DNA from: Promethearchaeia archaeon
GTDB lineage: Archaea > Asgardarchaeota > Lokiarchaeia > Sigyniarchaeales > SOKP01
DNA length: 64,000 nucleotides
Assembly (NCBI GenBank): GCA_046483985.1
Contig: JAWOCD010000004.1
Span: forward strand, 1 to 64,000
Direction: 5' to 3'
Each line of letters starts with the position of its first letter. Within the stretch, counting starts at the first letter, position 1. The translations under genes and the position numbers were made by a program. The notes under the pieces are model-generated. The model saw nothing but the letters and a program-made list of their open reading frames with translations. It was not told where the DNA came from and did not search any database. Below are positions 160-49,715 of this stretch, in pieces.

Positions 160-2433
160 ATGGATCATAAAAAATTAGGCTGGTTGCCAATTCCTTTTCT
201 ATTAATATCGTTATTATTTGGTGGTATCGTAGTAGAAGTTTCAAACACTCGAAATACCCCTACTTCTAGCGTTTCCCCCTCCAAAGAGTTGCTTTATTCT
301 TCATCTAGCACCCTTTCTGTCAATGAGAGCCAAAACCCAGTCCAAGTTGGCGATCAAGTCACTATTGCAGCAAAAATTGTCCCTCCCTATGAGGGAGATG
401 TACAAATAGAGATTGACGGAGCAAATCACTCTATGGTACAAATTGATCAATTAATCTGGAGATATAATTGGACTGCATCAAGTCCAGGAGAATTTCCTTA
501 TATTGTGCGCTTTGATGAGGGAGAAAAAAGCGGAACCATTGAAGTACTGGAAAAGGAACCTCCTCAATATTCAAATCTCAAGATTCTTTCCAATCCATTG
601 GAACTGGGTAATAATCTAAATGTTTCCCTCTTAGTCACAGACTCCGACACAGTGAATGAAGTTTTACTTGAATATGAAGGATCTAACCACACATTTGCCA
701 ATCTGGGAGGAGGTTATTATAAAAACGGTGAATGGACTCCCTCCAGTTTGGGAAACTATACATTTACGATTTATATGAAAAAAAATGGTTATACTTGGAA
801 TGTTTATAGTGATCTCTTAGAAGTGGTTCCGGATGCTTCACCGCCCACGTATAAAATTCCGGAGAGTCACAAGGAATCTGTTGTCATAAATGAATCTTTT
901 TCAATAAAATTGGAAGTCTTTGATGCTACTGAGGTAAACCAAGTCCTGATTGAATATGACGGTGCCAACCATTCGATGATTAACAAACCCGATACAAATG
1001 TATGGTATCATGACGATTGGAAACCCGAAACTCCGGGGGATTATCCGTATACTATCTATATGGAAGATGTAAATGGATATTGGAATATGACTACGGGAAC
1101 CCTTACTGTCTTGGAAGCAACTCCCGACACTGCCTCGGGGGGTAATACAGACTTTATATTACCTGTAATAATTATTGCCTGTATTGGAGCGATCTCGGGC
1201 ATTATAGGTGTGAAAAAAATTAGGAAAAAACCAGCCAAACAGAAGGGAAAATTGAAGACCAAGAAAACCATAGGTAAGGTAAACCAACTTGATTCTGGAA
1301 AAAGTAAAGAGGAAGAAGATATTAATAAACATCCCGTTTCGGTGGTCTGTCCGAAATGTAATCGGGATTTCACGGTGAAGATTCCTAAAAATATAATAAA
1401 TGAAGCAAAACAACTTACCACGGTTTCAATCCCGCGTAATTTAGGTTGTGAGCACCATTTCCAAATTTTTATAGACAAAAACTTTACAGTGCGGGGATAT
1501 CAGAAAGTAGATTATGAACCTAGTATATCCCCTCAACATTTAGGAATCGGCGAGGAAAATAAGACTGACACTAAAACAGGGAGATCCCCCGAAAATGAAG
1601 CGCTATTAGAAGTTAAAGAAAAACTGAAAACGGAAGCCAAACATTCGGATCTTATTTCAGACGAAGATAATGCAATTTCCAGAAATTTTGAAAACCCTGA
1701 TGCTATTTATTATGAGATCCGAAAATTTCTCGGAATACCCGATGAAAGTTTTGACCTCTATAAAATAGTCAATCATACCTATGAATCAGACACGGCTAAA
1801 CTTAAGGTTCTGGAAGAAATTTATGTTTTTACCCAAAAGTTCTCGATGTTTAAAGATATTAACCCATTAATGGCTTCCTTGTACTCGTATGTGAGGCAGT
1901 GCATCAACCAAAAACCAGAGGATATGAAAAAAATTGACCAATCTCTGATCAAAACAACGCTCATGGGGTTCATCAGCGAATTCGTTGAATACACCCAAGA
2001 AGAACAGCAAGATAAAGTCTTGGATTTTTTAACCGAGTCGCTTGGCAAACTAAGTTTAGAACCGTTGGTCATAAATTTAGGACTCCTTTTGAAACCGATG
2101 TATGAAGACGAGGAATATCTTAAGGAGTCTACAGCGACAAAGATGGCTGAAGTAGCCTACAGTAAGGATGGAGATAAGGAAACATCAATAAAAGCAGCGA
2201 TCAATAATTGGATTGAAGACCATGAGATCACTCTCAGTTCTCAAGAAAAGATGGAAAGCCAGTTGATGAAGCAGTTTAAAAAACTCGCACGCAAGCATCA
2301 TATTGAAAAGGGAAGTGAGCTTTATAGAACCTTAAAAGTCGACATCAAAGAGATGCTAGCATTAAAATTTACCGTTTCTAGTTTGATGGAGGGAATCTCC
2401 GACGAATCTACGGAGCCAGATCCCCTAAAATAA
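160..2433 (+). CDS. Membrane-anchored protein: N-terminal TM/signal, three Ig-like repeats, TM, cytoplasmic Zn-ribbon and helical domain
   Basis: 757-aa ORF; repeats IEIDGANHSM / LEYEGSNHTF / IEYDGANHSM; second TM FILPVIIIACIGAISGIIGV followed by Lys-rich segment; CPKC...CEHH. Confidence 0.7.
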   Translation: MDHKKLGWLPIPFLLISLLFGGIVVEVSNTRNTPTSSVSPSKELLYSSSSTLSVNESQNPVQVGDQVTIAAKIVPPYEGDVQIEIDGANHSMVQIDQLIWRYNWTASSPGEFPYIVRFDEGEKSGTIEVLEKEPPQYSNLKILSNPLELGNNLNVSLLVTDSDTVNEVLLEYEGSNHTFANLGGGYYKNGEWTPSSLGNYTFTIYMKKNGYTWNVYSDLLEVVPDASPPTYKIPESHKESVVINESFSIKLEVFDATEVNQVLIEYDGANHSMINKPDTNVWYHDDWKPETPGDYPYTIYMEDVNGYWNMTTGTLTVLEATPDTASGGNTDFILPVIIIACIGAISGIIGVKKIRKKPAKQKGKLKTKKTIGKVNQLDSGKSKEEEDINKHPVSVVCPKCNRDFTVKIPKNIINEAKQLTTVSIPRNLGCEHHFQIFIDKNFTVRGYQKVDYEPSISPQHLGIGEENKTDTKTGRSPENEALLEVKEKLKTEAKHSDLISDEDNAISRNFENPDAIYYEIRKFLGIPDESFDLYKIVNHTYESDTAKLKVLEEIYVFTQKFSMFKDINPLMASLYSYVRQCINQKPEDMKKIDQSLIKTTLMGFISEFVEYTQEEQQDKVLDFLTESLGKLSLEPLVINLGLLLKPMYEDEEYLKESTATKMAEVAYSKDGDKETSIKAAINNWIEDHEITLSSQEKMESQLMKQFKKLARKHHIEKGSELYRTLKVDIKEMLALKFTVSSLMEGISDESTEPDPLK

Positions 2434-3093: not shown

Positions 3094-3609
3094 ATGATTG
3101 GATATCTTATCTTTGGTGGGATTATCTTTCTCGGCCTGTTTCTCTTACTTTATTTTGGAATTAAGAAGATAAAGGCCTATCTCAAAAAGAAATATATCCC
3201 CGAAAAGGCGACCTCGTTTAAATGTCTTGACGGGCATGTGGTGCGCTCGAAGGGGGAATTAATTATCGATAACCATCTCCACCGGCTCGGCTTGGAGCAT
3301 GAATATGAGCAAACCATCCGAGTTCGCGGCCGCAAGATCAAATATGACTGGTATCTGCCGAATCATGATATTTATATTGAATATTGGGGATATTATGGGA
3401 AGGATTATATGAAAAGGAAAGAGGAGAAAATTGACCTTTATGAAAAAGGCGGCCATACTCTAATATCGATCGAAAGCGTGATGTTTACGGACATTTATCC
3501 TCAGCTCGAGGAAAAGCTTGAACCATATACGCCCTTGGAAGATAAAACGAGAGAGAAGTTACATTGCCCCAATTGCGGAGAGGAATTAGATAATCGGTTT
3601 CGGAATTAA
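3094..3609 (+). CDS. Membrane-anchored PD-(D/E)XK nuclease-like protein with C-terminal Zn knuckle
   Basis: N-terminal TM; VRSKGELIIDN..L...EYE; YDWYLP..IYIEYWG; CPNCG. Confidence 0.65.
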   Translation: MIGYLIFGGIIFLGLFLLLYFGIKKIKAYLKKKYIPEKATSFKCLDGHVVRSKGELIIDNHLHRLGLEHEYEQTIRVRGRKIKYDWYLPNHDIYIEYWGYYGKDYMKRKEEKIDLYEKGGHTLISIESVMFTDIYPQLEEKLEPYTPLEDKTREKLHCPNCGEELDNRFRN

Positions 3610-4130: not shown

Positions 4131-4787
4131 ATGGAGAACTTCAAAAATCAAATTAAAGACTATCTATGGATTATTCCGATAATTGGTGGAGTTTTTTTTA
4201 TAATTTCAACAATAAGCCCAATTGGCTCAATAACAATGTTTATCACAACAAAGATCTACATGACAGGATATTATTCTTCTCCAATGGATACTGGAACTAT
4301 GGAACAACTTATTCCAATCGGTCCAATAACTATGGTTATACTACTTGGAATAGGAAGCTTATTAATCATTACCGGAGTTTTTTTTAAACAGGGAAAAATT
4401 GACCTCGAATTCAATAAAATGCAGTCTTTATGGTTAATACTCGCTATAGGCGGGATGGTCATGATAATTATTTTTATCTCCTTGATAACCACAGAGCTTC
4501 AGCAAGATTTAGGGGGATATGGACAAGTATCTACTTGGGATATAATAGATCCAAGATTTGGAATAATCGGTCCTTTTATAGGGGGCGCTATAGTGGTTGT
4601 TGGATTTATTCTTTCGAAAATGCAAATAATTAATTCTCAAGAACAACTTCAAGGGTCTCAACATCAGAATCTACCCAAACCTCACCAAAAATCTTCATCC
4701 GCTTCAAGTTCTAATATTTGTCCCACATGTAAAAATAGAATAGATTCTAATAGTAAATTCTGCGATCAATGCGGTACCGAAATATAA
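4131..4787 (+). CDS. 4-TM membrane protein with C-terminal zinc ribbon
   Basis: Four hydrophobic helices; CPTC...FCDQCG. Confidence 0.75.
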   Translation: MENFKNQIKDYLWIIPIIGGVFFIISTISPIGSITMFITTKIYMTGYYSSPMDTGTMEQLIPIGPITMVILLGIGSLLIITGVFFKQGKIDLEFNKMQSLWLILAIGGMVMIIIFISLITTELQQDLGGYGQVSTWDIIDPRFGIIGPFIGGAIVVVGFILSKMQIINSQEQLQGSQHQNLPKPHQKSSSASSSNICPTCKNRIDSNSKFCDQCGTEI

Positions 4788-4886
4788 TGAGTAACTATTT
4801 AAGAAATATATCTCCACGAGAGAGACACCCATTATTAACCTTTTCTTTATAATCTTAAGTTTGCTTCTATCTCGTGCAGATATAGT

Positions 4887-12814: not shown

Positions 12815-13218
12815 CCTTTTTTCACCTCCTTGATTTTGTTGGAGATTCGTTTATACTTGCTTTCCAAACGACTACTTGTCTTATTATTAGACTAGGCTAG
12901 GGAAGTATAATAGTTTAATAAACTGCCATAATTCTTTTCCATCGTCTCTTATAATCTAATCTCAATAGCTAATTTAAGTTCGCTTCCCAATTCAATTTCC
13001 AAGTCTCTTAAGAGTTACGCTTCGGATTCTCGTATTTGAGCACCCTAAAAAGATGAGTCCTCTTTCTCTTGATATAATCTCATAATTGTTTTCTGTGGAG
13101 GAGGAATATAAGTTCAACGAATTAAGTAATACTTCCGAGCAATTGCAATAGACCTTGCATGTAGTCTTTTAATGAAATACAACTTACATTTTTCATCGCG
13201 GATCTCTTCTAATTTCAT
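12800..13218 (-). pseudogene. Decayed ORF with several in-frame stops
   Basis: MKLEEIRDEKCKL...*...LLRDLEIELGSELKLAIEIRL* in one frame, with mixed TGA/TAG/TAA. Confidence 0.3.
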
Positions 13219-48317: not shown

Positions 48318-49715
48318 ATGAGTTCGGAAAATAAAACAAAAATTGTTGTTATCGGAATGGGCTATAATTATTAGGGTATCCCTAATAATGGCTAAGTTGG
48401 AATTCCGATGGCAGCTCTCTTAGCTGATGTTCCAGAGTTTTACGTTACTGGGATTCAAAGACGTTCAAAGCGTTCTGGATGGAAAATTGACTGGCTAAAT
48501 GCTGGAAAGAATCCCTTTGAAGGGGACGAGCCAGGATTAGATGACCTAATCGAACGAGTTGTTAAAAATGGAAAGTTTTCAGTTACTCCTGAATATGACG
48601 CTTGCGATACTGCAGATTATATTTTAATAGATGTCCAGACCCCAGTTGATGAAAAACGGGTCCCCAGATATAAATCTTTGAAAGAAGTGTCAAAAAAGGC
48701 CTCAAAACATCTTCATAAAGGAACCACCCTAATAATCGAATCGACCGTTGCCCCAGGAACTACAAACAATATTGTTGAGCCAATATTAGAAGAGGGAAGC
48801 GGATTAACACGCGGAGATGATTTTTATTTAGTCTTCTCTTTCGAACGTGTCATGCCTGGTAAATTGATTGAATATATTACGGACTTTCCGAGGGTGATTG
48901 GAGGAGGATGTGAAAAAGCAAATGAAAAAGCAAAATTTCTTTATGGAAAAGTAGTCAAAAAAGACCTACAAGTTACCGACACATTAACAGCGGAATTAAC
49001 GAAATGCATTGAAAATACTTATCGGGACGTAAATATTGCATTTGCGAATGAAATGGCTTTGGTTGCAGAGGATTTTAAAAGAGATGTATTTGAAATCATT
49101 GAACTTATCAATCATCGACATGACCGAATGATGCATATTCCCGGTTCTGGGGTAGGTGGGCATTGTCTCACGAAAGACCCGTGGTTATTAATGTACGGGC
49201 TTGAAACCTACACCGATAAACAAAATTGGGACAAAGTTAAAATTCTTCCGTTTTCAAGAAAAATAAACAACTCAATGCCGTCACATTTAGTGGATCTTAT
49301 GGAAGATGCATTTAAGGAGGCAGGAAAACCCGTGAATGACTCAAAAATCACCATAATGGGGGTTGCCTATAAACCAAATTGCGATGATACAAGAAATACT
49401 CCCGCAGCAGAAGTCTTCAATATTTTAAATGAACGTTATAATTCTAAAGTCTCTTATATTGCACACGACCCTTATGTCAAGAAAAAATACTTTACATACA
49501 CGGACTTAACGGAAAGTCTTCAAGAAGCAATAAGTAATGCTGATGCCTTGTTATTTGTTACGGATCATAGGGAGTATTATAATTTGGATTTGATGGAATT
49601 AAAAAATAAAGTAAATACCCCCATTTTAATTGATGGACGAAACATTTTCAATAAACAAAAAGTCTTAAATTTAGGCTTTATTTACCGTAAAATAGGGGAA
49701 GGAATAGGAAAATAA
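48318..49715 (+). CDS. wecC: UDP-glucose/GDP-mannose dehydrogenase family (WecC-like), split: join(48318..48365,48396..49715), 455 aa
   Basis: MSSENKTKIVVIGMGY + VGIPMAA after removing 30 nt; ERVMPG, AELTK..ENTYRDVNIAFANE, GVGGHC, GVAYKPN. Confidence 0.85.
48366..48395 (+). other. Candidate bulge-helix-bulge (tRNA-endonuclease-type) intron in mRNA
   Basis: 10-bp stem ATTATTAGGG/CCCTAATAAT; 4-bp helix GGCU/GGCU; bulges AUA and AAG; cuts after the 2nd bulge nt give exactly 30 nt. Confidence 0.8.

What the first reader, a model, noticed from the sequence alone, without database searches (positions are those of the whole stretch)
48318..48410. Candidate bulge-helix-bulge spliced intron inside a protein-coding gene (WecC-like dehydrogenase)
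SEEN: the ORF track starts this gene at 48408 without its NAD-binding loop. ATG 48318 reads MSSENKTKIVVIGMGY, then 30 nt (AAT TAT TAG GGT ATC CCT AAT AAT GGC TAA, two stops), then VGIPMAA in the same frame. The insert folds into a perfect 10-bp stem (48367-76/48380-89, UAU loop). Beneath it, GGCU 48360-63 pairs with GGCU 48390-93 (G.U, G-C, C-G, U.G), each followed 3' by a 3-nt bulge (AUA 48364-66, AAG 48394-96). The exons close the structure with G.U and AUCGGAAU/AUUCCGAU (48351-58/48402-09). KNOWN: archaeal splicing endonuclease EndA cuts BHB motifs after the second nucleotide of each bulge and RtcB ligates the exons. The classic archaeal mRNA example is the crenarchaeal cbf5 intron. Applying that rule removes exactly 48366-48395 and gives GGC TAT|GTT GGA ATT CCG = the canonical GxGYVGxP Rossmann motif. 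The remaining 439 codons are intact, including the catalytic Lys and Cys motifs. Treating the insert as a transposon footprint with a GGCTA duplication gives GGC TAA (stop), so only the BHB register rescues the gene. INFERENCE: tRNA-type mRNA splicing of a cell-envelope sugar gene in a probable Asgard archaeon, possibly a regulatory switch reminiscent of Ire1/HAC1-type non-spliceosomal splicing. A competing register (GCUA/UGGC helix, UAA bulges) would excise 28 nt and frameshift the gene.
Basis: partly seen in the sequence, partly recalled or inferred. Interest (0 to 1): 0.95.

Follow-up and report, generated by a model that had tools for sequence, protein, structure and literature searches.

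The report
tRNA-type mini-intron in Asgard sugar-dehydrogenase gene
A 30-base insert that breaks the NAD-binding loop of a sugar dehydrogenase gene in a Loki-type (Asgard) archaeon has the shape cut by the tRNA-splicing enzyme and recurs at the same spot in ten related alleles with compensating mutations, so the mRNA is very probably spliced, something confirmed in print for only one archaeal gene family (cbf5).

Summary
Window 48366-48395 is a 30-nt insert with two stops that splits the GxGYVGxP Rossmann motif of a nucleotide-sugar dehydrogenase (TIGR03026, closest to UDP-ManNAc dehydrogenase). It folds as a 4-bp helix with two 3-nt bulges and a 10-bp hairpin.

No RNA data could be obtained.

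- **Recurrence:** ten further alleles (four species genomes, six metagenome contigs) carry 29-, 30- or 31-nt inserts at this site. About 100 orthologs have none.
- **Correct product:** the BHB cutting rule restores ...GMGY|VGIP... in all 11 alleles.
- **Covariation:** the hairpin covaries (8 of 10 pairs). One central-helix pair swaps C-G to G-C.
- **Exon co-adaptation:** the synonymous Gly third base that pairs with the intron is never A in intron alleles, against 44 of 82 intronless ones.
- **Selection:** dN/dS against intronless kin is 0.05-0.12.
- **Machinery:** the genome encodes one EndA and two RtcB. Its tRNA introns have the same architecture.
- **Other cases:** at least two more 30-nt introns of this kind split the aEF-2 and AMP-phosphorylase-like genes.

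A competing 28-nt register cannot be excluded structurally. Nothing supports a regulatory switch. The scan has already noted this phenomenon, in this genome and in other Asgard genomes.

The parts
48318..48365 (+). Exon 1: start codon and 16 codons (MSSENKTKIVVIGMGY), the first strand and first half of the GxGYVGxP NAD-binding loop
   Evidence: Translation. Intact orthologs read ...IVVIGMGYVGIPMA... without interruption. Exon 2 begins at position 11 of the NCBIfam model TIGR03026, whereas an intact ortholog begins at position 2.
48366..48395 (+). 30-nt BHB mini-intron: third nucleotide of bulge 1, a 23-nt hairpin, the 3' strand of the central helix, and the first two nucleotides of bulge 2. 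It contains in-frame TAG and TAA.
   Evidence: Homologous inserts sit at the same site in 10 other alleles. It is single-copy in the genome.
48396..49715 (+). Exon 2: 439 codons plus the stop. It holds the rest of the NAD domain, the central domain with the catalytic Cys (GGHCLTKDP), and the UDP-binding domain.
   Evidence: Pfam PF03721, PF00984 and PF03720. TIGR03026 at 336 bits against a cut-off of 190. It is 63-74% identical to orthologs in the same family.
48360..48363 (+). Central helix H, 5' strand (GGCU, exon: the Gly codon GGC plus the U of the Tyr codon)
   Evidence: It pairs with 48390-48393. The Gly third base (48362) is C, U, or a compensated G in 10/10 intron alleles and never A. 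In intronless alleles it is A in 44/82.
48364..48366 (+). Bulge 1 (AUA). The predicted 5' cut lies between 48365 and 48366.
   Evidence: Geometry. The cut rule, between the second and third bulge residue, is as stated for cbf5 introns in PMC2738675.
48367..48389 (+). Helix h': a perfect 10-bp stem (48367-76/48380-89) with loop UAU 48377-79
   Evidence: Eight of its 10 pairs show changes on both sides across 9 alleles.
48390..48393 (+). Central helix H, 3' strand (GGCU, intron)
   Evidence: Across 9 alleles the three inner pairs are paired in 27/27 cells, including one C-G to G-C swap. The outermost pair is paired in 5/9.
48394..48396 (+). Bulge 2 (AAG). The predicted 3' cut lies between 48395 and 48396.
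   Evidence: Geometry. AAG is invariant in the nine 30-nt alleles.
48345..48359 (+). Exon side of outer helix h, 5' strand: G48359 (pairs with U48397) and the 14-nt distal strand 48345-58
   Evidence: MFE fold. All 14 pairs form in 5/10 intron alleles against 1/82 intronless alleles.
48397..48415 (+). Exon side of outer helix h, 3' strand: U48397, a 4-nt asymmetry UGGA 48398-401, and the distal strand 48402-15

Best explanation
Window 48366-48395 is a genuine archaeal bulge-helix-bulge (BHB) intron inside the coding sequence of a nucleotide-sugar dehydrogenase of a Promethearchaeota (Loki-type Asgard) archaeon.

**Proposed mechanism.** In the pre-mRNA, the exon bases GGCU (48360-63) pair with the intron bases GGCU (48390-93) to form the 4-bp central helix. 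Two 3-nt bulges (AUA and AAG) sit on opposite strands. A 10-bp intron hairpin (h') lies on one side. On the other side lies an exon-exon helix (h), made of one G.U pair followed, after a 4-nt asymmetry, by 8-14 bp. The genome's splicing endonuclease EndA cuts after the second nucleotide of each bulge, and RtcB joins the exons. This removes exactly 30 nt and produces GGC UAU|GUU GGA, which is the GxGYVGxP Rossmann loop, and so a 455-residue enzyme.

**Shown here:** the structure; its conservation and covariation in 11 alleles; co-adaptation of exon synonymous sites; purifying selection on the exons; the presence of EndA and RtcB; and the identical architecture of tRNA introns in the same genome.

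**Inferred:** the cutting and joining themselves, and which register the enzyme uses.

**History.** The intron looks old within this family, because intron sequence similarity follows the gene tree. It has been lost precisely many times, or replaced by intronless alleles through recombination.
For: 1. **Recurrence at one site.** Of about 110 orthologs in 135 family genomes, plus one metagenome scan, 11 distinct alleles carry an insert exactly between the Tyr and Val codons. All others are uninterrupted.
2. **Length is not constrained to multiples of three.** Inserts of 29, 30 and 31 nt all leave the downstream frame open (438-444 codons, or to the contig end) only if the insert is removed.
3. 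**The BHB rule gives the right product in 11/11 alleles.** This includes the 29-nt allele of G004, where the 5' cut shifts by one base and yields G|TC = Val.
4. **Covariation.** 90% of cells are paired, against 29-43% when partners are slid. Thirteen pairs change on both sides, and 0/500 shuffles reach this. Eight of 10 h' pairs covary, and H contains one C-G to G-C swap.
5. **Exon co-adaptation.** The synonymous Gly third base that pairs with the intron is C in 8, U in 1 and a compensated G in 1 of 10 intron alleles. In intronless alleles it is A in 44/82. The 14-bp exon helix is perfect in 5/10 against 1/82.
6. **Purifying selection.** dN/dS is 0.045-0.115 against the nearest intronless alleles at dS 0.16-0.39.
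7. **Machinery.** EndA (PF01974 and PF02778, 200 aa) and two RtcB genes are present.
8. **Same architecture elsewhere in the genome.** tRNA-Pro and tRNA-Arg carry 29-nt introns built from H, two 3-nt bulges and a 9-bp hairpin. Two further 30-nt BHB inserts split aEF-2 at AHID|HGKTT and an AMP/thymidine-phosphorylase-like gene at KHS|T|GG. In both, a Pfam domain resumes at exon 2: GTP_EFTU at model position 14 and Glycos_transf_3 at model position 11.
9. **Not a repeat, not an artefact.** The insert is single-copy in the genome and occurs in independently assembled MAGs and contigs.
Against: - No RNA evidence exists. Nothing shows the joined form or a circular intron.
- The BHB is not the minimum-free-energy fold.
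- The exon-side helix h next to bulge 2 is only one G.U pair, so the motif is relaxed (HBh'-like).
- The outermost pair of H is unpaired in 4 of 9 alleles.
- A competing 28-nt register shares three H pairs, is paired in 36/36 cells, and would frameshift the gene.
- Only one EndA subunit was found, although Asgard archaea are reported to use (alpha-beta)2 enzymes with broad specificity (PMC5829648).
- The window's own allele sits on a long branch (at most 74% identity, dS saturated), so its own dN/dS could not be measured.
Confidence: 0.86

Rival explanations
1. The insert is a BHB substrate, but EndA cuts largely or partly in the competing 28-nt register (helix GCUA/UGGC, bulges UAA and NAA). 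Much of the transcript would then be frameshifted. Productive splicing would be inefficient, or tunable, and would act as a throttle on expression.
For: In nine 30-nt alleles the 28-nt register's central helix is paired in 36/36 cells, against 32/36 for the productive register. The variable column 54 (U, C, A or G) behaves like an unpaired bulge base. The scanner finds both registers in the window.
Against: The 28-nt register has no exon-side pair at all (G opposite G) and gives a stop after about 10 codons. All 11 alleles conserve the frame that only the 29/30/31-nt excision restores. In G004 only the productive geometry forms. The pairs that would discriminate between registers (A25, A28, U50) are invariant, so comparison cannot decide.
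Confidence: 0.07
2. The gene is a pseudogene. A small palindromic element or insertion scar landed in the Rossmann loop, and the gene is decaying or is used only as a truncated protein from ATG 48408.
For: The insert carries two in-frame stops and is flanked by a 5-nt direct repeat (GGCTA), which resembles a target-site duplication. Most orthologs lack it. The intron alleles are scattered singly on the gene tree.
Against: Eleven alleles carry the insert, all with intact exons 1 and 2 and no other lesion. dN/dS is 0.05-0.12. The direct repeat is explained as the two strands of helix H and covaries. Exon synonymous sites are adapted to pair with the insert. The insert is single-copy in the genome. 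Exon 1 would have no reason to stay open and conserved. A protein starting at 48408 would lack the GxGxxG loop.
Confidence: 0.04
3. The insert stays in the mRNA and is skipped by the ribosome (translational bypassing, as in phage T4 gene 60 or the byp elements of Magnusiomyces mitochondria; this comparison is from my own knowledge).
For: A stop codon follows soon after the take-off region, and a stable hairpin lies in the gap. Bypassing, like splicing, is indifferent to gap length (29, 30 or 31 nt).
Against: There are no matched take-off and landing codons. The triplet before the resume codon is UAA, CAA, AAA or GAA, not a Tyr codon, and a landing on the repeated GGC would be followed by UAA. 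The conserved feature is the exact two-bulge, 4-bp geometry shared with tRNA introns of the same genome, which bypassing does not need.
Confidence: 0.02
4. The 30 nt are an assembly or binning artefact.
For: The window comes from a draft genome of 128 contigs. The raw reads of the source sample could not be inspected.
Against: Homologous inserts occur at the same site in four other species-level genomes and six metagenome contigs from other projects.
Confidence: 0.01

Closest known systems
BHB intron in the cbf5 (pseudouridine synthase) pre-mRNA of Crenarchaeota (Watanabe 2002; Yoshinari 2006; Yokobori 2009, PMC2738675)
   Same: Both are short introns inside a protein-coding sequence that fold into a (relaxed) bulge-helix-bulge. 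Cuts are predicted between the second and third bulge residues. Both interrupt the codons of a catalytic or binding motif, are present in some lineages and absent in close relatives, and are thought to be removed by the tRNA splicing endonuclease and ligase.
   Different: The gene differs (nucleotide-sugar dehydrogenase) and so does the phylum (Promethearchaeota/Asgard). The architecture here is a uniform minimal 29-31 nt. Presence varies even between alleles that are 96-98% identical in protein. It is one of several such introns in the same genome. cbf5 splicing has cDNA and enzymatic support, and this one has none.
[quoted passage not shown]
   Same: The geometry is identical, and in this genome so are the size and build: tRNA-Pro and tRNA-Arg carry 29-nt introns made of a 4-bp helix, two 3-nt bulges and a 9-bp hairpin. 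The enzymes are presumably the same.
   Different: The host is an mRNA, so the exon half of the motif must be built from codons. Here it uses a Gly third base and a Tyr codon. Mis-cutting by one register destroys the reading frame instead of a tRNA fold.
Ire1-dependent HAC1/XBP1 mRNA splicing joined by tRNA ligase or RtcB in eukaryotes (from my own knowledge; RtcB's role in XBP1 splicing is mentioned in the abstract of PMC8718801, listed)
   Same: Both are non-spliceosomal removal of a short intron from a coding mRNA by an endonuclease plus the tRNA ligase, and both change the reading frame or product.
   Different: The endonuclease differs (Ire1 recognises stem-loops, not a BHB), and the eukaryotic case is a regulated stress response. 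Nothing here indicates regulation.

Membership tests
Archaeal BHB intron (substrate of splicing endonuclease EndA) | [quoted passage not shown] | tested here: met
   The helix is GGCU 48360-63 with GGCU 48390-93, and the bulges are 48364-66 and 48394-96. Across 9 alleles the three inner pairs are paired 27/27 and the outer pair 5/9.
Archaeal BHB intron (substrate of splicing endonuclease EndA) | Flanking helices h' (intron side) and h (exon side). A relaxed motif lacks one of them. | tested here: inconclusive
   h' is a perfect 10-bp helix and covaries. h next to bulge 2 is a single invariant G.U pair, followed by a 4-nt asymmetry and an 8-14-bp exon helix. This fits a relaxed HBh'-like motif rather than a strict hBHBh'.
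Archaeal BHB intron (substrate of splicing endonuclease EndA) | Cutting after the second nucleotide of each bulge yields a functional RNA | tested here: met
   In silico the rule restores GxGYVGxP and a single open frame in 11/11 alleles with inserts of 29, 30 and 31 nt.
Archaeal BHB intron (substrate of splicing endonuclease EndA) | The genome encodes EndA and an RtcB-type ligase | tested here: met
   There is one EndA of 200 aa (PF01974 100 bits, PF02778 32.5 bits) and two RtcB genes (571 and 554 bits). No second EndA subunit was found with these queries.
Archaeal BHB intron (substrate of splicing endonuclease EndA) | Excision and exon ligation observed in RNA, or by enzyme assay | not testable with these tools
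   No RNA run is listed for this DNA. The one DNA run that was laid did not cover the site.
cbf5-type archaeal pre-mRNA intron | Located in the cbf5 gene of Desulfurococcales or Sulfolobales, at the catalytic Asp codon | tested here: not met
   The host gene is a nucleotide-sugar dehydrogenase and the relatives are Promethearchaeota. The mechanism may be the same, but this is not the same intron family.
Nucleotide-sugar dehydrogenase (TIGR03026; UDP-ManNAc dehydrogenase-like) | Three-domain architecture with an N-terminal GxGxxG NAD loop and a catalytic Cys | tested here: met
   PF03721, PF00984 and PF03720 match. TIGR03026 scores 336 bits against a cut-off of 190. GGHCLTKDP is present. The GxGYVG loop exists only after the 30 nt are removed. 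The archaeal UDP-ManNAc dehydrogenase equivalog scores 307 bits, below its cut-off of 750, so the exact substrate is not assigned.
Translational bypass element (T4 gene 60 / byp type) | Matching take-off and landing codons flanking the gap | tested here: not met
   The take-off codon would be UAU or UAC. The triplet before the resume codon is UAA, CAA, AAA or GAA.
MITE or insertion-sequence footprint | Multiple copies in the genome, and a target-site duplication unrelated to function | tested here: not met
   The palindrome occurs once in 4.06 Mb with up to 3 mismatches allowed. The GGCTA repeat forms the two strands of helix H and co-varies.

The most novel reading that the evidence does not exclude
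Loki-type Asgard archaea routinely splice protein-coding mRNAs with the tRNA-splicing machinery. A family of minimal introns of about 30 nt, heritable and repeatedly lost, sits preferentially in the codons of highly conserved glycine-rich nucleotide- or phosphate-binding loops. In this one genome those are GxGYVG, AHIDHGKTT and KHSTGG. Exon synonymous sites co-evolve with the introns. Their site preference would reflect either targeted spread (homing or reverse-splicing-like mobility into conserved RNA motifs) or use as a splicing-dependent control on expression. Non-spliceosomal mRNA splicing would then have been an established layer of gene expression in the archaeal relatives of eukaryotes.
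Probability: 0.3. Interest if true: 0.92.

Novelty: new member of a known kind. Interest (0 to 1): 0.8.

Why it matters
In the papers I could search, endonuclease-mediated splicing inside an archaeal coding sequence is confirmed only for cbf5 of Crenarchaeota. PMC2738675 states there was no confirmation for other genes, only predictions. I found no paper reporting BHB introns in Asgard protein genes.

This locus offers an unusually complete comparative case:
- 11 alleles with three intron lengths;
- helix covariation;
- exon synonymous sites tuned to the intron.

It sits in the archaeal lineage closest to eukaryotes, in a genome where the aEF-2 gene carries the same kind of intron.

There is a practical consequence. 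Standard gene callers truncate such genes or call them pseudogenes. Here the ORF list starts at 48408 and misses the NAD loop, so metabolic reconstructions of Asgard MAGs will under-count functional genes.

Conceptually, it makes testable the idea that tRNA-type splicing of mRNAs was already in routine use in Asgard archaea.

Tried and rejected
- **RNA evidence.** The look-up of sequencing runs listed no RNA holder and only one DNA run, with a 0.07 share of words. Laying that run gave short pieces at 48926-49276 only and nothing over the intron. This is uninformative either way.
- **Rfam and tRNA scans of the window.** No matches.
- **Genome-wide census of coding-sequence BHB introns in G000.**
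  - I used my own scanner (strict geometry, then relaxed) with ORF merging and a hexamer coding score.
  - Frame-shifted controls passed as often as the real register: 47 real against 46-58 for controls at L 25-36, and 49 against 53-69 in the last filter.
  - Operon junctions swamp the signal, so no count can be given.
  - Only candidates that also had a strong hairpin (dG of -7 or lower) stood out. Two of them were verified by Pfam.
- **A fourth candidate.** G000:C71:11355-11387 (33 nt) has no Pfam support on either side. It is not claimed.
- **Earlier scan leads.** A quick look for the HDAC-family and dnaG introns in this genome did not recover a clean canonical BHB with my parameters. They remain untested leads.
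- **Second-site insert.** The 30-nt insert at GGH|CLTKDP in G059 has no canonical BHB in any of the four frame-restoring registers. It is not counted as an intron.
- **MITE or repeat hypothesis.** Rejected, because the palindrome is single-copy.
- **Second EndA subunit.** Not found with PF01974, PF02778 or the EndA protein as queries. The genome is 97% complete, so absence is not shown.
- **Regulatory-switch idea.** Nothing in the sequence bears on it.
Full report
**1. The observation**

The sequence is exactly as described.
- ATG 48318 opens 16 codons ending IVVIGMGY.
- 30 nt follow (48366-48395) with an in-frame TAG and TAA.
- VGIPMAALL... then runs open for 439 codons.
- The mechanical ORF list starts the gene only at ATG 48408.

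All the structural elements are present:
- the 10-bp stem 48367-76/48380-89;
- the two GGCU tetramers (48360-63 and 48390-93);
- the bulges AUA and AAG;
- the G.U pair 48359/48397;
- the exon-exon helix.

The 81-nt region folds at -31.4 kcal/mol with z = -4.84. The MFE itself pairs the first GGCU with AGUU 48395-98, so the BHB is an alternative of similar energy and not the predicted optimum. Geometry this good occurs about 2 x 10^-6 times per position and length in this genome. The palindrome is single-copy in the genome.

**2. The gene and the organism**

Exon 2 carries the three domains of the UDP-glucose/GDP-mannose dehydrogenase family. It passes the NCBIfam nucleotide-sugar dehydrogenase model. 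Its best, though sub-threshold, equivalog is the archaeal UDP-ManNAc dehydrogenase. Exon 2 starts at model position 11, whereas an intact ortholog starts at position 2. The missing positions are therefore those encoded by exon 1.

The genome (4.06 Mb, 128 contigs, 97% complete) has one EndA (200 aa, both Pfam domains) and two RtcB genes. The 80 closest loci in species-representative genomes are titled almost entirely Promethearchaeota/Promethearchaeia or 'uncultured archaeon', with a few carrying other Asgard labels. Promethearchaeota is the Asgard phylum that holds the former Lokiarchaeota.

**3. Comparative test**

In 135 genomes of the same family, 112 have an ortholog. Almost all read ...VIGMGYVGIPMA... 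without interruption. Four other species genomes carry an insert at exactly this site:

| Genome | Intron | Length |
|---|---|---|
| G062 | L065:231-260:+ | 30 nt |
| G106 | L067:1423-1452:- | 30 nt |
| G046 | L070:1416-1445:- | 30 nt |
| G004 | L071:1424-1452:- | 29 nt |

A pattern scan of metagenome contigs required only the flanking codons and a gap of 28-43 nt. It returned six more alleles:

| Locus | Intron | Length |
|---|---|---|
| L160 | 452-482 | 31 nt |
| L161 | 302-331 | 30 nt |
| L162 | 780-809 (-) | 30 nt |
| L163 | 841-870 (-) | 30 nt |
| L164 | 3437-3466 | 30 nt |
| L165 | 4770-4799 (-) | 30 nt |

In all 11 alleles the downstream frame is open (438-444 codons, or to the contig end) only when the insert is removed. 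The 29- and 31-nt inserts put the two exons in different genomic frames. That is the signature of something removed at the RNA level and not of a tolerated in-frame insertion.

In G004 the BHB geometry forms one base further 3' on the 5' side (helix GGUA/UACU). It predicts a 29-nt excision that rebuilds a Val codon from G|TC. This was an independent test of the cutting rule, and it passed.

**4. Covariation**

On the nine 30-nt alleles (alignment A2), the proposed structure has these properties:
- 90% of cells are paired, against 29-43% when partners are slid by 1-3 columns.
- 13 pairs have changes on both sides.
- 0 of 500 shuffles reach the observed values.
- Eight of the 10 h' pairs covary.
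- The three inner pairs of the central helix are paired in 27/27 cells. They include G.U/G-C variants and one full C-G to G-C swap.
- The outermost pair of H is paired in only 5 of 9.

**5. Exon co-adaptation**

The third base of the Gly codon (window 48362) pairs with the intron strand of H. In intron alleles it is C (8), U (1) or G with a compensating C (1), and never A. In 82 distinct intronless alleles it is A in 44 and C in 10.

The 14-bp exon-exon helix is perfectly paired in 5 of 10 intron alleles against 1 of 82 intronless alleles.

These alleles are relatives of one another, so the counts overstate independence. The direction is what selection on an RNA structure that spans exon and intron would predict.

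**6. Selection and history**

Against their nearest intronless alleles, intron-bearing genes show dN/dS of 0.045-0.115 at dS 0.16-0.39. The window's own allele is on a long branch with saturated dS, so only its intactness can be cited.

On a protein tree of 78 alleles, the five species-genome intron alleles are scattered and need five changes. Their intronless sisters are 91-98% identical in protein.

Intron sequences resemble each other in a way that follows the gene tree. G046 and G004 share the 5' half of the intron and lie in one starred clade. I therefore favour one old intron with many precise losses, or replacement by intronless alleles through recombination, over repeated independent insertion. 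This is inference.

**7. The same thing elsewhere in the genome**

ARAGORN finds only 29 tRNA genes in this nearly complete genome. Several have introns of 26-29 nt. In tRNA-Pro, a 4-bp helix CUGG/CUGG, two 3-nt bulges and a 9-bp hairpin give a 29-nt intron at position 37/38. This is the same build as the mRNA intron.

My genome scan could not produce a census, because frame-shifted controls passed as often as the real register. Three candidates combined exact geometry, a length of 30 nt and a strong hairpin. One is this locus. The other two are:
- G000:C115:48042-48071, which splits aEF-2 at AHID|HGKTT. GTP_EFTU resumes at model position 14 in the first residue of exon 2.
- G000:C32:149428-149457 (-), which splits an AMP/thymidine-phosphorylase-like gene at KHS|T|GG. 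Glycos_transf_3 resumes at model position 11.

Both were checked. The only other EF-2-family gene in the genome is 34% identical. All three introns lie in codons of glycine-rich nucleotide- or phosphate-binding loops.

Earlier notes of this scan report these two and further introns in this genome and in other Asgard genomes. I used them as leads only. I found the two above with my own scan before I read the notes on this genome.

**8. Rivals**

- **Pseudogene or insertion scar.** This is contradicted by 11 intact alleles, covariation, exon co-adaptation and low dN/dS.
- **Translational bypass.** It lacks matched take-off and landing codons and does not need the two-bulge geometry.
- **Assembly artefact.** It is excluded by independent assemblies.
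- **The competing register.** This is the one open structural issue. A 28-nt BHB (helix at columns 22-25/50-53) shares three H pairs and is paired in 36/36 cells, but it frameshifts the gene. The bases that would discriminate between the registers are invariant, so comparison cannot decide. Only the conserved reading frame argues that the 30-nt cut is the one that matters. Whether the enzyme also makes the unproductive cut is an experimental question.

**9. Comparison with what is known**

The closest published case is the cbf5 pre-mRNA intron of Crenarchaeota. It has the same cut rule, a relaxed BHB and patchy presence (PMC2738675). That paper says no other archaeal pre-mRNA splicing had been confirmed.

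Papers on Asgard introns that I could find deal with tRNA genes only (PMC11291895; bioRxiv 10.64898/2026.10.13.758758). Asgard EndA is described as (alpha-beta)2 with a loop that confers broad specificity (PMC5829648). I found only one subunit here.

This locus is a new member of the known kind 'BHB intron in an mRNA'. It lies in a new gene and a new phylum, has a minimal uniform architecture and unusually good comparative support, and has no RNA proof.

**10. Verdict**

Confidence that the insert is removed from the mRNA by EndA and RtcB is about 0.86. The regulatory-switch idea is untested.

Noticed in passing
L154:243-272 (= G000:C115:48042-48071, + strand): A 30-nt BHB insert (helix AUUG/CAAU, bulges AUU and AAC, 9-bp hairpin) splits an aEF-2 gene in its P-loop at AHID|HGKTT. 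Pfam GTP_EFTU resumes at model position 14 in the first residue of exon 2. The only other EF-2-family gene in the genome is 34% identical.
   Followed up: partly
L153:1229-1258 (= G000:C32:149428-149457, - strand): A 30-nt BHB insert (helix CAGC/GCUG, bulges ACA and AAG, 10-bp hairpin) splits an AMP/thymidine-phosphorylase-like gene inside the KHSTGG phosphate-binding motif. Glycos_trans_3N lies in exon 1, and Glycos_transf_3 resumes at model position 11 in exon 2.
   Followed up: partly
window 48366-48395; L154:243-272; L153:1229-1258: All three verified coding-sequence introns of this genome sit in codons of glycine-rich nucleotide- or phosphate-binding loops (GxGYVG, AHIDHGKTT, KHSTGG). All are exactly 30 nt and end in AA. 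This may be chance, ascertainment bias, or a site preference.
   Followed up: no
L069 (G059:C129:6550-8250, - strand), about 30 nt between the codons for GGH and CLTKDP: Another species has a 30-nt stop-containing insert at a second site of the same gene, just before the catalytic Cys codon. It has a 7-bp hairpin but no canonical BHB in any frame-restoring register. The same locus has an 84-nt duplicate fragment of the gene (residues 238-265) upstream.
   Followed up: partly
L015 / L072 (G008:C68, about 13020-13120): A run of 100 N covers exactly the 5' end of the ortholog, including the intron site, in this genome. Presence of the intron there cannot be scored.
   Followed up: no
G000 whole genome; tRNA-Pro at C102:94534-94639 (-), tRNA-Arg at C102:72006-72110 (-): ARAGORN finds only 29 tRNA genes in a 97%-complete genome, 12 of them with called introns. 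This suggests that many tRNA genes are hidden by non-canonical or multiple introns. The 29-nt introns of tRNA-Pro and tRNA-Arg have the same mini-hairpin build as the mRNA introns.
   Followed up: partly
L032:1171-1770 (G000:C32:38230-38829, +): Only one EndA-like gene (200 aa) was found with PF01974, PF02778 or the protein itself as queries. Published work assigns Asgard archaea a two-subunit (alpha-beta)2 enzyme (PMC5829648).
   Followed up: partly
G106:C149:2658-4031 (-) and G106:C186:1067-2263 (+): One genome bin holds two copies of the dehydrogenase gene, one with the intron and one without (77% identity to the query, cut by the contig end). This could be strain mixture, contamination or a true duplication.
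   Followed up: no
L155:456-488 (G000:C71:11355-11387, +): A 33-nt BHB-like insert with a strong hairpin (dG -7.3) would join two open frames of 27 and 127 codons. Neither side has a Pfam match, so it remains only a candidate.
   Followed up: partly
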